From a virus: DNA of 11,199 nt. Under the pieces are notes generated by a model. The model made no database searches and was not told the DNA's origin. It saw nothing but the letters and a program-made list of their open reading frames with translations. Each line of letters opens with the position of its first letter. The first letter of the stretch is position 1. Shown one piece after another: positions 8,596-9,622 of the stretch. Where the stretch lies: IMG/VR virus record IMGVR_UViG_3300009149_007415. The stretch is one strand, 5' to 3'. Position numbers and translations under genes: made by a program.

Positions 8596-8967
8596 ATGAA
8601 AGACGTATTTGGCTAGATTAATCAAAAATTAATCGTTATCACTAGGAGAGATCTATCTCCTGGTTATCAAGCTGTTCAGTCAGCTCACGCAGCAGTTGAT
8701 TTTCAGCATCAACATCCTCAGTTAGCTAAAGAGTGGAATTCCAACTCAAACTATCTTATTATTCTAGCAGTAGAAAATGAGGAAAAACTCCAAAAGTACA
8801 TCCAGAAATTTCAAAAAGCAAATTTGTGTCATGTTGTGTTCAAGGAACCCGATATAGGCAATGAAATTACTGCGCTTTGTGTACAGCCCTCTGAAATGAG
8901 CAGGAAATTAACCTGTCATTTACCATTAGCATTAAAGGAATTTAACGAGCAATTAACGGCAAGTTAA
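8596..8967 (+). CDS. PTH2-family peptidyl-tRNA hydrolase-like protein. The reading frame carries an in-frame TAG at codon 7 (8614-8616).
   Basis: After the ATG at 8596 (MKDVFG), a TAG is followed by a 116-codon stop-free frame (plus the TAA stop) with no ATG until near its end. That frame encodes KLIVITRRDLSPGYQAVQSAHAAVDF…KEW…YLIILAVENEEKLQ…ITALCVQP…, matching the PTH2 pattern (MVIVVRSDIKMGKGKIAAQVAHAAV…KEW…IIVKV…ITCLGIGP). The conserved domain begins 4 codons after the TAG. It is missing from the ORF track, which required ATG-initiated ORFs. Confidence 0.55.
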
Positions 8968-9066
8968 GATCATTTAAAGAAAAAAATTGTATATTGAACT
9001 AAATTAAAATGTTATGAAAGAACATTGGTAGATTAAAAATAGAGGCCCGTAAAGATTGTTTCTAAA

Positions 9067-9097
9067 CATAGACACAAGCATGGACACGATGTCTATG
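9067..9097. promoter_or_regulatory. 8-bp inverted repeat CATAGACA…TGTCTATG (15-nt spacer) upstream of the 9134 gene
   Basis: Read directly from the sequence. Possible regulatory hairpin or operator. Confidence 0.2.
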
Positions 9098-9133
9098 CTG
9101 TTGACCAAGTAATAATTTAAAAAAGAAACAATC

Positions 9134-9523
9134 ATGGAAAATAAAAGATTTTACGAAACGGACCCAAAAACTTTAGTAGCTAAATATAATGAAGCACTTA
9201 AAGTAGTTAATGAAAAAGTAGAAAAAGAAGGCTGGAGAATTACTGGAGAAATCTGGATGCCAAATGAAGAGAATATGATTTCTGCCATAAGGAATGGTAA
9301 ATATTCTAAGAATGAGAGAAAGGTTCTTCGAAATAGAATTAATAGAGTTCTTTTAAAGCCTGGTTTAAGAAATATTAATACGCTTACACATGCTAAGGTT
9401 AAGGTTTCTGAACGAGAAGAACAGATTCAGAAAGCCCGTAAGAAGTGGAAAGTAGCCCAATCTATATCGGATCAACTAATGGAGGAATACAAAACTCTAA
9501 AGGGGGATTTCTATAAAAGATAA
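9134..9523 (+). CDS. Hypothetical basic protein (129 aa)
   Basis: ATG-to-TAA ORF, followed by a GGGGG-TGAAATT-CCCCC hairpin. No homolog recognised. Confidence 0.5.
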   Translation: MENKRFYETDPKTLVAKYNEALKVVNEKVEKEGWRITGEIWMPNEENMISAIRNGKYSKNERKVLRNRINRVLLKPGLRNINTLTHAKVKVSEREEQIQKARKKWKVAQSISDQLMEEYKTLKGDFYKR

Positions 9524-9528
9524 TAGTC

Positions 9529-9549
9529 GGGGGTGAAATTCCCCCTTAT
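9529..9549 (+). terminator. GC hairpin (GGGGG-TGAAATT-CCCCC) followed by TTAT; weak terminator or tRNA 5'-processing structure
   Basis: Lies between the 9134-9523 gene and the tRNA. The U-tract is short. Confidence 0.3.
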
Positions 9550-9622
9550 GTCCGATTAGCTCAGTTGGCAGAGCGCAGGATTCTAGACCCGGAGGTCGTC
9601 GGTTCGAGCCCGACATCGGACG
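9550..9622 (+). tRNA. tRNA with anticodon CUA (amber-reading, suppressor-type); amino-acid identity undetermined
   Basis: The acceptor is a perfect 7-bp stem (GTCCGAT/ATCGGAC) with discriminator G. D-arm is GCTC-AGTTGGCA-GAGC. T-arm is GTCGG-TTCGAGC-CCGAC, and the variable loop is AGGTC. The 7-nt anticodon loop TTCTAGA has U33, anticodon CTA and a purine at 37. The anticodon stem is CAGGA/CCCGG, with only 3 Watson-Crick pairs plus A-G and A-C mismatches. The anticodon call relies on canonical numbering. Confidence 0.6.

What the first reader, a model, noticed from the sequence alone, without database searches (positions are those of the whole stretch)
8596..9622. PTH2-like peptidyl-tRNA hydrolase gene interrupted by an in-frame TAG, with a CUA-anticodon (amber suppressor-type) tRNA encoded 0.6 kb downstream
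Seen directly:
- The ATG at 8596 is followed six codons later by a TAG at 8614-8616.
- The PTH2-like domain begins four codons after that TAG.
- The 116 sense codons after the TAG contain no ATG until near their end, so there is no plausible restart.
- The tRNA at 9550-9622 has a perfect acceptor, D-arm and T-arm. Its 7-nt anticodon loop TTCTAGA places CTA at positions 34-36.

Inference: the TAG is read through by the element's own suppressor tRNA. This would be programmed amber suppression or local stop-codon reassignment of the kind reported for crAss-like and Lak phages. The target gene is itself a tRNA-metabolism enzyme.

Other genes here end in TAA (most) or TGA. TAG ends only three genes:
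- the MVP gene, with TAA two codons later, so readthrough would add four residues;
- the 4196-4420 gene;
- the 5083-5256 gene; both of these small genes abut tRNA genes.

This looks like conditional or partial suppression rather than a global code change within this window.
Basis: partly seen in the sequence, partly recalled or inferred. Interest (0 to 1): 0.8.

Follow-up and report, generated by a model that had tools for sequence, protein, structure and literature searches.

The report
Amber-gated tRNA hydrolase gene with suppressor tRNA
A phage gene for a peptidyl-tRNA-hydrolase-like enzyme carries a deliberately kept stop codon (TAG) just after its start. The matching stop-reading tRNA is encoded next to it, and this pair recurs in dozens of unrelated large phages that otherwise use the normal genetic code.

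Summary
ATG 8596, in-frame TAG 8614-8616, a PTH2-fold domain at 8617-8967, and a tRNA with anticodon CUA at 9550-9622 are all present.

It is not a sequencing error or a pseudogene. In 89 non-redundant homologous loci, 74 have the same layout: a start codon, 1-10 leader codons, TAG, then the domain. Two have TAA at that position and none has a Gln codon. These loci come from huge lake and sediment phages, IMG/VR, JGI metagenomes, MAG bins and cultured mycobacteriophages.

A tRNA(CUA) gene lies within 3 kb in 32 of the 35 TAG-gated loci with enough flank. Other lineages of the family carry TAG inside the domain, which only suppression can decode.

The genomes are not recoded. The window has 80 CAA/CAG codons, one in-frame TAG and three TAG terminators. 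A complete 462-kb relative has one tRNA(CUA) and no other TAG-split gene.

Best reading: a self-contained cassette in which synthesis of the PTH2-like enzyme depends on the phage's own amber suppressor. The inserted amino acid and the enzyme's physiological role remain unknown. I found no description of this cassette in the literature searched. It is testable in cultured mycobacteriophages.

The parts
8596..8613 (+). Leader: ATG plus five sense codons (MKDVFG), in frame with the TAG and with the PTH2-like domain.
   Evidence: Sequence. An in-frame ATG leader of 1-10 codons precedes the stop in 76 of 79 gated homologs. Long leaders share a motif such as MK(K/N)(Y)AD(E/T)GxG, which is related to MKDVFG.
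8614..8616 (+). In-frame amber codon (the 'gate'), four codons before strand 1 of the domain.
   Evidence: The same column is TAG in 74 non-redundant loci, TAA in 2, and never CAA/CAG. The next base is A (56 loci), G (21) or C (2), and never T.
8617..8967 (+). PTH2-like (peptidyl-tRNA hydrolase 2 fold) coding region: 116 codons plus TAA.
   Evidence: - PF01981, E 8.7e-11; phrog_1866, E 9.5e-18.
- Model pLDDT 92.6.
- Foldseek matches to archaeal Pth2 and human Bit1, TM 0.70-0.78.
- Profile against PDB sequences: 1rzw, E 4e-7.
9134..9523 (+). Small ORF (129 aa, no known family) between the PTH2-like gene and the tRNA.
   Evidence: - Homologs end 20-70 nt before the tRNA(CUA) in 10 loci.
- In at least 28 other loci an unrelated ~110-aa ORF family takes this place.
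- No Pfam or PHROG match.
- Its membership in the cassette is uncertain.
9529..9545 (+). GGGGG-tgaaatt-CCCCC hairpin, 4 nt upstream of the tRNA 5' end.
   Evidence: Read from the sequence. It was not called as a terminator by the scan. Function unknown.
9550..9622 (+). tRNA with anticodon CUA (amber suppressor type); no encoded CCA.
   Evidence: - ARAGORN; Rfam tRNA 54.8 bits.
- The same tRNA type (loop TTCTAGA, A31.C39) lies downstream of the gated gene in L037, L038, L041 and L055.
- A tRNA(CUA) lies within 3 kb in 32 of the 35 TAG-gated loci that have at least 2.6 kb of downstream sequence.

Best explanation
The window carries a two-part translational cassette found in many large phages. 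One part is a gene for a PTH2-fold enzyme, probably a peptidyl-tRNA hydrolase. The other is a gene for a tRNA with anticodon CUA, a few hundred bases downstream on the same strand.

Proposed mechanism:
- Translation starts at ATG 8596 and meets UAG at codon 7.
- Without the suppressor, release factor 1 ends translation after a six-residue peptide and no enzyme is made.
- When the phage tRNA(CUA) is transcribed, processed and charged by a host synthetase, it inserts an amino acid at UAG and the full 123-residue protein is made.
- The UAG therefore works as a gate. It makes enzyme output depend on, and scale with, suppressor activity.
- Placing it right after the start keeps failed attempts cheap.

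The rest of the genome is read with the standard code.

Shown here: the layout, its conservation, the specific use of TAG, the linkage to tRNA(CUA), the PTH2 fold, and the absence of other TAG-split genes.

Inferred:
- That readthrough actually occurs.
- Which amino acid is inserted. Gln is the usual outcome for CUA anticodons, and aligned columns at the internal TAG sites hold Q/E/D/N.
- That the enzyme recycles tRNAs from peptidyl-tRNA produced as a by-product of suppression.
For: Position and identity of the stop:
1. The TAG is conserved in position at 39-93% protein identity. All eight closest phage and IMG/VR homologs have it, as do 76 of 80 JGI loci and all 6 GTDB-bin loci. In 89 non-redundant loci, 74 have a TAG gate.
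2. The stop is specifically TAG: 74 TAG, 2 TAA, 0 TGA. TAG ends only 3 of 16 genes in the window and 20 of 364 long ORFs in LR756500.1. A binomial test gives P ~1e-50, assuming independent loci.
3. No sense codon replaces the TAG in the clade, while the leader and the following codons vary freely.
4. The codon after the TAG is often not a possible start (GTA, ATA, ACT, AAC, AGC, AGT, CTT). T is never at +4.

TAG inside the domain:
5. Other lineages have TAG inside the domain, spanned by alignments to about 100 homologs: L002, L010, L011, L028, L060, L092 and L098/L101.

Linkage to the tRNA:
6. A tRNA(CUA) lies on the same strand at a median of 708 nt downstream. It is present in 20 of 20 JGI loci with at least 2.7 kb downstream, and in 32 of 35 overall. 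In direct-start homologs it sits 1-72 nt from the stop (L008-L011, L026) and 7 nt in L033.
7. LR756500.1 (462 kb) has one tRNA(CUA) among 26 tRNAs, 0.78 kb from the gene, and no other TAG-split gene.
8. In cultured mycobacteriophage ScoobyDoobyDoo the depositors annotated tRNA-Pyl(cta) 180 nt after the 'peptidyl tRNA hydrolase' gene. That gene is preceded by GTG TAG.

The protein:
9. The PTH2 fold and family are supported.
Against: - There are no expression, proteomic or charging data.
- L036 encodes a protein 95% identical to the window's but has no in-frame ATG before its TAG.
- In mycobacteriophages Catera and ScoobyDoobyDoo, a Shine-Dalgarno-like box is spaced for the GTG that follows the TAG. 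The depositors start the gene there, so in those phages the enzyme may be made without readthrough.
- In the window and in 37 of 79 gated loci the codon after the TAG is ATT, a rare but real start codon.
- Two loci carry TAA at the gate, which a CUA anticodon cannot read.
- The window tRNA has two non-Watson-Crick pairs in its anticodon stem and G37. This may make it a weak suppressor.
- Three window genes end in TAG and would be extended by an efficient suppressor.
- The canonical catalytic Lys of Pth2 aligns with Tyr or Gln here, so hydrolase activity is not assured.
- Only 11 kb of the window's own genome is known.
Confidence: 0.72

Rival explanations
1. Leader mini-ORF without readthrough. 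ATG...TAG is a separate 1-10 codon upstream ORF. The enzyme is then initiated independently, or by termination-reinitiation, at the codon after the stop (ATT here, GTG in mycobacteriophages). The nearby tRNA(CUA) serves other purposes.
For: - ATT follows the TAG in the window and in 37 of 79 gated loci.
- GTG follows it in Catera and ScoobyDoobyDoo, with an SD-like box at the right spacing, and the depositors annotate that start.
- L036 lacks the upstream ATG.
- Two loci use TAA at the gate.
- Direct-start homologs begin about where the TAG lies.
Against: - If any stop would do, TAA should dominate in these AT-rich genomes. Instead TAG accounts for 74 of 76 gates.
- The codon after the stop is GTA, ATA, ACT, ACA, AAC, AGC, AGT or CTT in many loci.
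- TAG inside the domain in at least 7 lineages cannot be bypassed by reinitiation.
- This reading does not explain the near-obligate linkage to tRNA(CUA).
Confidence: 0.1
2. Ordinary genome-wide or late-gene TAG-to-Gln recoding (code 15), as in crAss-like and Lak phages. The window would then simply lie in a region still written in the standard code.
For: - A suppressor tRNA(CUA) is present.
- GC content is low, at 37%.
- The relatives are Mahaphage-clade huge phages, predicted to infect Bacteroidetes like Lak.
- Recoded phages are known to keep early regions in the standard code.
- The collection's gene caller chose a TAG=Q model for some short contigs.
Against: - The window has one in-frame TAG against 80 CAA/CAG codons, and TAG ends 3 of 16 genes.
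- Reading TAG as sense gains no more ORF coverage than reading TGA as sense, in any locus.
- The whole 462-kb LR756500.1, which carries the same cassette, has 20 long ORFs ending in TAG. Its only two same-frame pairs split by TAG are plainly separate genes.
- Under neutral code 15, the gate would drift between TAG and CAA/CAG. It does not.
Confidence: 0.08
3. Neutral entrenchment. Once a suppressor was present, a sense-to-TAG change in the neighbouring gene became harmless and was inherited. On this view it has no regulatory meaning.
For: This fits the route proposed for the origin of recoding: a standard-code phage acquires a suppressor first, and in-frame stops appear later.
Against: - Reversion to a sense codon would be equally neutral, yet it is not seen in 74 lineages down to about 40% protein identity.
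- TAG arose at least at three different sites of this one gene family, and in no neighbouring gene.
- The +4 base is biased away from T.
Confidence: 0.05
4. Site-specific insertion of a special amino acid (pyrrolysine-like) by a dedicated tRNA, as in methylamine methyltransferase genes.
For: - There is a single conserved in-frame UAG in one gene family, with a tRNA(CUA) gene beside it.
- ARAGORN and some depositors label the tRNA 'tRNA-Pyl'. That label is given from the anticodon alone.
Against: - The tRNAs are ordinary cloverleaves of at least three unrelated sequence classes.
- No synthetase or biosynthesis gene was seen among the neighbours.
- Many family members lack the residue altogether, because they start after that position.
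- The site lies before strand 1, away from the conserved Q..H / EPD..T motifs.
Confidence: 0.02
5. Sequencing error or pseudogene lesion.
For: None beyond the presence of a stop codon in a reading frame.
Against: The same stop sits at the same place in independent assemblies from many samples and from cultured phages. The domain downstream is intact and conserved.
Confidence: 0.01

Closest known systems
TAG-recoded (code 15) phages with suppressor tRNAs: crAss-like, Lak and other gut phages
   Same: - A phage-encoded tRNA(CUA) is predicted to read UAG in a host that uses the standard code.
- The in-frame stop is proposed to act as a way of controlling when a protein is made.
- The relatives of this window belong to the same huge-phage clade as Lak.
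   Different: - In those phages, tens to hundreds of genes, mainly structural and lysis genes, contain TAG, and coding density rises under code 15.
- Here one gene family is the only detectable target. TAG still ends genes, and the gate codon is fixed rather than interchangeable with CAA/CAG.
Suppressor tRNAs of standard-code jumbo phages with no known target (for example Xanthomonas phage XacN1, which has two tRNA(CUA) genes)
   Same: A large phage with many tRNAs carries CUA suppressors but shows no genome-wide recoding. The XacN1 authors read through the 18 amber stops of annotated genes and found no target.
   Different: - Here a target is identified. It would have been missed by that approach, because the stop sits 1-10 codons after the start of an unannotated leader.
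- XacN1's own PTH2-like domain (ORF364) has no TAG and no adjacent suppressor.
prfB (release factor 2) autoregulation through an early in-frame stop codon (established knowledge, not tested here)
   Same: A translation-factor gene carries a conserved in-frame stop near its 5' end. Its output therefore reports on how that stop is being decoded in the cell.
   Different: - prfB uses a +1 frameshift at UGA, and the product itself recognises the stop.
- Here the escape route is a suppressor tRNA.
- It is unknown whether the PTH2-like product feeds back on suppression.
Pyrrolysine system: pylT next to genes with one conserved in-frame UAG (established knowledge)
   Same: A dedicated-looking tRNA(CUA) gene is linked to a gene family with a position-conserved UAG.
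   Different: There is no pylS or pylBCD, no pylT-like tRNA architecture, the tRNA sequences are heterogeneous, and the residue is dispensable in part of the family.
Phage lambda bar minigenes (AUG AUA stop) and host Pth (established knowledge)
   Same: In 46 of 79 gated loci the leader is a two-codon ORF (M-K or M-T, then stop). That is the class of minigene known to provoke peptidyl-tRNA drop-off, which Pth resolves. Here it sits in front of a Pth-like gene.
   Different: - bar minigenes are free-standing and end in UAA or UGA.
- Here the stop is specifically UAG, in frame with the enzyme and paired with a suppressor.
- The window's leader is six codons long. The connection is a lead, not a result.

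Membership tests
PTH2 / peptidyl-tRNA hydrolase 2 (Pfam PF01981) | Sequence match to the family model above the curated threshold | tested here: met
   42.5 bits against a cut-off of 23, E 8.7e-11, covering profile positions 2-112 of 115. All 70 database homologs but two carry PF01981. The family profile hits PDB Pth2 chains: 1rzw E 4e-7, 1q7s E 5e-6, 2zv3 E 1.5e-5.
PTH2 / peptidyl-tRNA hydrolase 2 (Pfam PF01981) | The alpha/beta Pth2 fold | tested here: met
   AlphaFold2 model with pLDDT 92.6 and pTM 0.85. The top 14 Foldseek PDB hits are archaeal Pth2 or Pth2-like proteins and human Bit1, with TM 0.59-0.78 and probability 1.0.
PTH2 / peptidyl-tRNA hydrolase 2 (Pfam PF01981) | Conserved catalytic residues of characterised Pth2 enzymes | tested here: inconclusive
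   Invariant Q21, H24, E77-P78-D79 and T85 align with the canonical AQ..HA and D..T motifs. The Lys of the canonical GK motif aligns with Tyr or Gln here. The assignment of catalytic roles comes from memory of the Pth2 literature.
PTH2 / peptidyl-tRNA hydrolase 2 (Pfam PF01981) | Hydrolysis of peptidyl-tRNA | not testable with these tools
   Needs an enzyme assay.
Code-15 (TAG to Gln) recoded phage | Encodes a tRNA with anticodon CUA | tested here: met
Code-15 (TAG to Gln) recoded phage | In-frame TAG in many conserved genes, with coding density rising when TAG is read as sense | tested here: not met
   - Window: one in-frame TAG in 2,564 sense codons.
- ORF coverage gains under TAG-sense are no larger than under TGA-sense.
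- The homology-spanning test finds only the PTH2 sites.
- The complete relative LR756500.1 has no TAG-split genes.
- The rest of the window's own genome is unavailable.
Code-15 (TAG to Gln) recoded phage | TAG no longer used as a terminator | tested here: not met
   TAG ends 3 of 16 window genes. Two of these abut tRNA genes, so readthrough would run into the tRNA. In LR756500.1, 20 of 364 long ORFs end in TAG.
Code-15 (TAG to Gln) recoded phage | The inserted residue is glutamine | tested here: inconclusive
   - Columns aligned to the internal TAGs hold Q, E, D, N, T or K.
- The one sense replacement seen at the gate is Lys, in L050.
- tRNA similarity to other isotypes is uninformative.
- The 'Q' in database proteins is only the gene caller's translation of TAG.
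Pyrrolysine insertion system | pylT-type tRNA together with pylS and pylBCD genes | tested here: not met
   The tRNA is a canonical cloverleaf with a 5-nt variable loop and an 8-nt D-loop, scoring 54.8 bits on the general tRNA model. No synthetase-like or biosynthetic Pfam hits were found in the window or in the annotated neighbourhoods. Only about 10 kb around the gene was examined.
Autoregulatory recoding of a translation-factor gene (prfB type) | A conserved early in-frame stop in the factor's own gene | tested here: met
   The stop is at codon 2-11 in 79 non-redundant loci.
Autoregulatory recoding of a translation-factor gene (prfB type) | The gene product changes how that stop is decoded (a feedback loop) | not testable with these tools
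   Would need suppression reporters with and without the PTH2-like protein.

The most novel reading that the evidence does not exclude
The cassette may be a self-regulating 'suppression rheostat'. On this reading the PTH2-like enzyme acts on the suppressor tRNA's own aminoacyl or peptidyl form, or on the peptidyl-tRNAs that suppression generates. Because its synthesis needs that same suppressor to read its UAG, the pair would form a closed feedback loop. The loop would hold amber readthrough at a set level in a cell that otherwise uses the standard code. It would be a tRNA-based analogue of RF2 autoregulation, carried as a mobile two-gene unit by phages of hosts as far apart as (predicted) Bacteroidota and Mycobacterium.
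Probability: 0.15. Interest if true: 0.9.

Novelty: new variant of a known kind. Interest (0 to 1): 0.8.

Why it matters
Suppressor tRNAs turn up in many large phages that do not use an alternative code, and their targets have been an open question. The XacN1 authors searched for targets and found none.

This finding gives a concrete, conserved target: the neighbouring PTH2-like gene, gated by an amber codon placed just after its start, where standard annotation cannot see it. Three consequences follow.

1. Stop-codon suppression in phages can be a single-gene regulatory device, not only a step towards genome-wide recoding.
2. Gene callers systematically mis-annotate this family. They truncate it, start it at an internal codon, or translate it with TAG=Q.
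3. The idea can be tested at the bench. Cluster C mycobacteriophages that grow on M. smegmatis carry the same gene-tRNA pair.

The link between a suppressor and a peptidyl-tRNA hydrolase also points to a cost of suppression, stalled or dropped-off peptidyl-tRNA, that phages may need to manage.

Tried and rejected
- **Near-identical DNA in GenBank phages:** none found.
- **Using 'MTQINQKL...' N-termini of database homologs as evidence for Gln:** rejected. The encoding DNA shows that the Q is TAG translated by the gene caller.
- **Crude ORF-coverage comparison of codes on 6-20 kb loci:** too weak to discriminate. Replaced by the whole-genome test on LR756500.1.
- **All-against-all search for TAG sites spanned by homology:** very noisy, because off-frame translations of conserved genes also align. 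Only sites supported by at least 90 loci (all in PTH2) are credible.
- **Search for other start-less ORFs behind a TAG:** only the PTH2 genes stand out. One weak candidate in LR756500.1 (L119, minus strand, 5824) was not pursued.
- **Inferring the tRNA's amino-acid identity:** similarity to other phage tRNAs, both across loci and within LR756500.1, gave no consistent nearest isotype.
- **Initiator-tRNA idea (UAG as a start codon read by an initiator-like tRNA(CUA)):** rejected. The tRNA has a paired 1-72 end and lacks three G-C pairs in the anticodon stem. An in-frame ATG almost always precedes the TAG.
- **Alternative anticodon reading (UCU, Arg):** not viable for the window tRNA, whose shifted stem would have one pair. 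Catera's tRNA is ambiguous: GenBank says Arg(tct) and ARAGORN says cta.
- **A third universal component between the gene and the tRNA:** rejected. Two unrelated small ORF families alternate there, and neither has a Pfam or PHROG match.
- **Promoter and terminator scan of 7900-9800:** nothing above chance.
- **Alignment A1:** too diverse for the search for related loci.
- **Literature:** no paper in the library links PTH2 or peptidyl-tRNA hydrolase with phage suppressor tRNAs.
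Full report
**1. The observation**

The sequence reads ATG(8596) AAA GAC GTA TTT GGC TAG(8614) ATT AAT CAA AAA TTA ATC GTT ATC ACT AGG ... TAA(8965-8967).

- The 116 codons after the TAG match Pfam PTH2 (PF01981): residues 4-102, E 8.7e-11, 42.5 bits against a cut-off of 23. They also match phrog_1866.
- No ATG, GTG or TTG occurs in frame until TTG 8824.
- ARAGORN calls a tRNA at 9550-9623 with anticodon cta.
- The Rfam tRNA model scores 54.8 bits and places UUCUAGA as the anticodon loop.
- My 16 + strand gene models end in TAA 10 times, TGA 3 times and TAG 3 times. They hold 80 CAA/CAG codons and a single in-frame TAG.

**2. The TAG is conserved, so it is not an accident**

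The best tblastn matches in GenBank phages are the huge phages of Al-Shayeb et al. 2020 (LR756500-LR756504, LR745206; 42-57% identity). Every one I opened has the same layout:
- ATG AAG TAG ATT (LR756500)
- ATG TCG TAG ATT (LR756501)
- ATG AAC AAT TAG ATT (LR745206)
- ATG ACA TAG ATT (LR756504)

Wider sampling gave the same picture:
- IMG/VR loci.
- 80 JGI metagenome loci, out of 375 relatives found.
- Six contigs in GTDB genome bins, three of them binned as Bacteroidota.

An automatic tally over 89 non-redundant loci (at most 95% identity) gives:

| Class | Loci |
|---|---|
| TAG gate | 74 |
| TAA gate | 2 |
| Direct start, no gate | about 11 |
| Undetermined | 2 |

Three of the distant loci were mis-scored by the script as TAA or TGA gates. 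By eye they are direct starts or unclear, and the table counts them that way.

Other features of the gated loci:
- An in-frame ATG precedes the stop in 76 of 79.
- The leader is two codons long in 46.
- Longer leaders share a motif related to the window's MKDVFG.
- No homolog in the 55-93% identity clade has CAA or CAG at the gate column.

**3. The stop has to be TAG, and it goes with a tRNA(CUA)**

TAA is the commonest terminator in these AT-rich genomes: 303 of 364 long ORFs in LR756500.1, against 20 for TAG. If the short leader were just an upstream ORF, TAA should dominate. Instead TAG accounts for 74 of 76 gates. A binomial test gives P ~1e-50, although the loci are not independent.

A tRNA with anticodon CUA lies on the same strand downstream, at a median distance of 708 nt:
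- 20 of 20 non-redundant JGI loci with at least 2.7 kb of downstream sequence have one.
- 26 of 27 with at least 1.5 kb have one.
- 32 of 35 TAG-gated loci overall have one.

More distant homologs that start directly (M-x-K-L-Y-V) still have the tRNA(CUA) 1-72 nt after their stop codon (L008-L011, L026), or 7 nt after it in L033. The gene-tRNA linkage is therefore older than the N-terminal gate.

tRNA(CUA) is the commonest tRNA type in these loci, at 62 of 188 unique tRNAs. The tRNAs fall into at least three sequence classes, with loops CTCTAAA, TTCTAA[ACT] and TTCTAG[AC]. The window's class recurs, with the same A31.C39 mismatch, in L037, L038, L041 and L055.

**4. Readthrough rather than reinitiation**

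- The codon after the TAG is ATT in 37 loci. Elsewhere it is GTA, GTT, ATA, AAC, ACT, AGC, AGT, ACA or CTT, most of which cannot start translation.
- The base after the TAG is never T (0 of 79; expected frequency 0.18). From memory of the E. coli literature (Bossi 1983; Poole and Tate), A at +4 favours amber suppression and U favours release-factor termination.
- Several lineages carry TAG inside the domain:
  - the loop after helix 1 in L002, L010, L011 and L028;
  - EPG#ASEKL in L092, L098 and L101;
  - one site in L060.
- These are the only TAG sites in all loci spanned by alignments to about 100 homologs. They can be decoded only by a suppressor.

Points that go the other way:
- L036 encodes a protein 95% identical to the window's but has no in-frame ATG before its TAG.
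- L094 and L097 have TAA at the gate.
- In mycobacteriophages Catera (ATG TAG GTG) and ScoobyDoobyDoo (GTG TAG GTG), a G-rich box is spaced for the GTG after the TAG. The depositors start the gene there.

**5. This is not a recoded genome**

- In the window, reading TAG as sense merges nothing except the PTH2 leader.
- I assembled the whole 462,018-bp LR756500.1 from ten fetches.
- It has 26 tRNAs and one tmRNA. Its single tRNA(CUA) lies 0.78 kb from the PTH2-like gene.
- TAG ends 20 long ORFs.
- Only two same-frame ORF pairs are separated by a TAG. In both, the downstream ORF begins with its own Met, so they are two genes.
- The neighbourhoods of close relatives are dense arrays of small standard-code genes, including NUDIX, thioredoxin, NAD synthase and dCMP deaminase.
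- I cannot see the rest of the window's own genome.

**6. The protein**

- A model built on 18 sequences has pLDDT 92.6, with strand 1 at post-TAG residues 5-10.
- Foldseek finds archaeal Pth2 structures (2zv3, 3erj, 1wn2, 1xty) and human Bit1 (1q7s), with TM 0.70-0.78.
- Q21, H24, E77-P78-D79 and T85 are invariant across 16 diverse homologs.
- The Lys of the canonical GK motif is Tyr or Gln here.
- Membership of the PTH2 superfamily is supported. Enzymatic activity is inferred.

**7. Mechanism proposed**

Translation from ATG 8596 stops at UAG unless the phage tRNA(CUA) is present and charged. When it is, the 123-residue enzyme is made. The gate ties enzyme synthesis to suppressor activity, and its position right after the start makes failures cheap.

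The inserted residue is unknown:
- Columns aligned to the internal TAGs hold Q, E, D or N.
- The lone sense replacement at the gate is Lys, in L050.
- tRNA similarity is uninformative.
- The 'Q' in database proteins is merely the gene caller's translation of TAG.

Why a peptidyl-tRNA hydrolase should be the gated gene is not explained by my data. The most economical idea is that suppression raises the load of stalled or dropped-off peptidyl-tRNA, and that the enzyme clears it. A more interesting possibility is feedback on the suppressor itself.

**8. Comparison with what is known**

- Phage suppressor tRNAs and TAG recoding are well described for crAss-like, Lak and other gut phages. There, many late genes are recoded.
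- The XacN1 paper reports CUA suppressors whose targets could not be found.
- None of six literature searches, nor the papers I read, mentions a link between PTH2 or peptidyl-tRNA hydrolase and suppressor tRNAs, or an amber codon in such a gene. The library is incomplete, so prior description cannot be excluded.
- I rate this a new variant of a known kind: suppressor-dependent decoding used as a single-gene gate, within a conserved mobile cassette.

**9. Limits**

- All evidence is comparative.
- Gene models and gate calls come from my own scripts.
- tRNAs were called with ARAGORN only; tRNAscan-SE was not available.
- Counts are of sequences, not independent evolutionary events.
- Flanks are short for many loci.

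Noticed in passing
window 2737-3215 (+), with a tRNA-like element at 2810-2879: GOLLD RNA (Rfam RF02032, 157 bits against a gathering score of 150, E 6e-43). A tRNA-model match of 45.5 bits is embedded in it, and ARAGORN did not call that element. This explains the ORF-poor stretch at about 2500-4100.
   Followed up: no
window 5464-7965 (+): An 833-aa protein with major-vault-protein domains (MVP_shoulder E 3e-28, Vault_3, SPFH/Band 7), encoded in a phage context. Homologs lie upstream of the PTH2-like gene in 24 other loci.
   Followed up: partly
L094 about 2992-3000 (SDBT01005464.1) and L097 about 72-101 (Ga0114923_10264895): The gate codon is TAA instead of TAG (ATG ACA TAA ATT......TTT GGC TAA GTA...). 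No tRNA is visible in the short flanks. An ochre-type tRNA(UUA) sits next to the PTH2-like gene in L077 and in Prevotella phage Lak-B1.
   Followed up: partly
L036 4142-4165 (Logan SRR32473236 contig): This is the closest relative of the window's protein (95% identity). It has TGA GAC GGA TTT GGC TAG ATT, so there is no in-frame ATG before the gate. The gate comes directly after the terminator hairpin of the MVP-like gene.
   Followed up: no
L014 (mycobacteriophage Catera, DQ398053) 2971-2979 and 3602-3675; L121 (ScoobyDoobyDoo, MZ820085) 2974-2982 and 3517-3590: Cultured cluster C mycobacteriophages have (A/G)TG TAG GTG at the start of their 'peptidyl tRNA hydrolase' gene, with a tRNA 180-250 nt downstream. 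That tRNA is annotated tRNA-Pyl(cta) in one record and tRNA-Arg(tct) in the other. ARAGORN reads cta in both.
   Followed up: partly
L004 9224-10360 (IMGVR_UViG_3300010356_003188): A 5' fragment of a gated PTH2-like gene (MK#VHPKLVVITRRDLSPGSQAVQAAQ) is followed in frame by an HNH-endonuclease-like insert, and then by a second complete gated copy (MT#IKEKLYV...). This looks like homing-endonuclease invasion of the gene.
   Followed up: no
Proteins P0001-P0016 and others; loci L034, L035: The protein collection holds this family in three mis-annotated forms: TAG translated as Q ('MTQINQKL'), truncated at an internal Met (P0004, P0005, P0017, P0050, P0057, P0058), or started after the TAG.
   Followed up: yes
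window 9134-9523 and the same position in other loci: Two unrelated small helical ORF families alternate between the PTH2-like gene and the tRNA(CUA). One is the window's type, with a C-terminal EKGDFYKK motif. The other is a ~110-aa type containing QKFLKNQRKT...MYAAYGLMRGK. P0024 was called as a fusion of PTH2 with the second type.
   Followed up: partly
window 9529-9545: A GGGGG/CCCCC hairpin sits between the stop of ORF 9134-9523 and the tRNA 5' end, 4 nt before the tRNA. It has no T-run.
   Followed up: no
L004 5233-5303; L006 10601-10670: ARAGORN reports tRNA-like genes with a 4-base anticodon (tttg) and a 2-base anticodon (ga) in phage tRNA clusters near the cassette.
   Followed up: no
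window 266-1285, 1492-1875, 9905-10243: Other window genes: a radical-SAM-like protein (phrog_24834, E 2e-145), a SiaC-family protein (E 4e-30) and a pyrimidine-dimer DNA glycosylase (E 1e-14). No Shine-Dalgarno-like sequence precedes any window gene, which fits the predicted Bacteroidetes hosts of the related huge phages.
   Followed up: no
L012 830-1273 and 2461-3300 (Xanthomonas phage XacN1): In XacN1 the PTH2-like domain is the C-terminal part of ORF364, annotated 'hypothetical protein'. It lies four genes after a GatB/YqeY-like 'glutamyl-tRNA amidotransferase' (ORF360). There is no gate and no adjacent suppressor.
   Followed up: no
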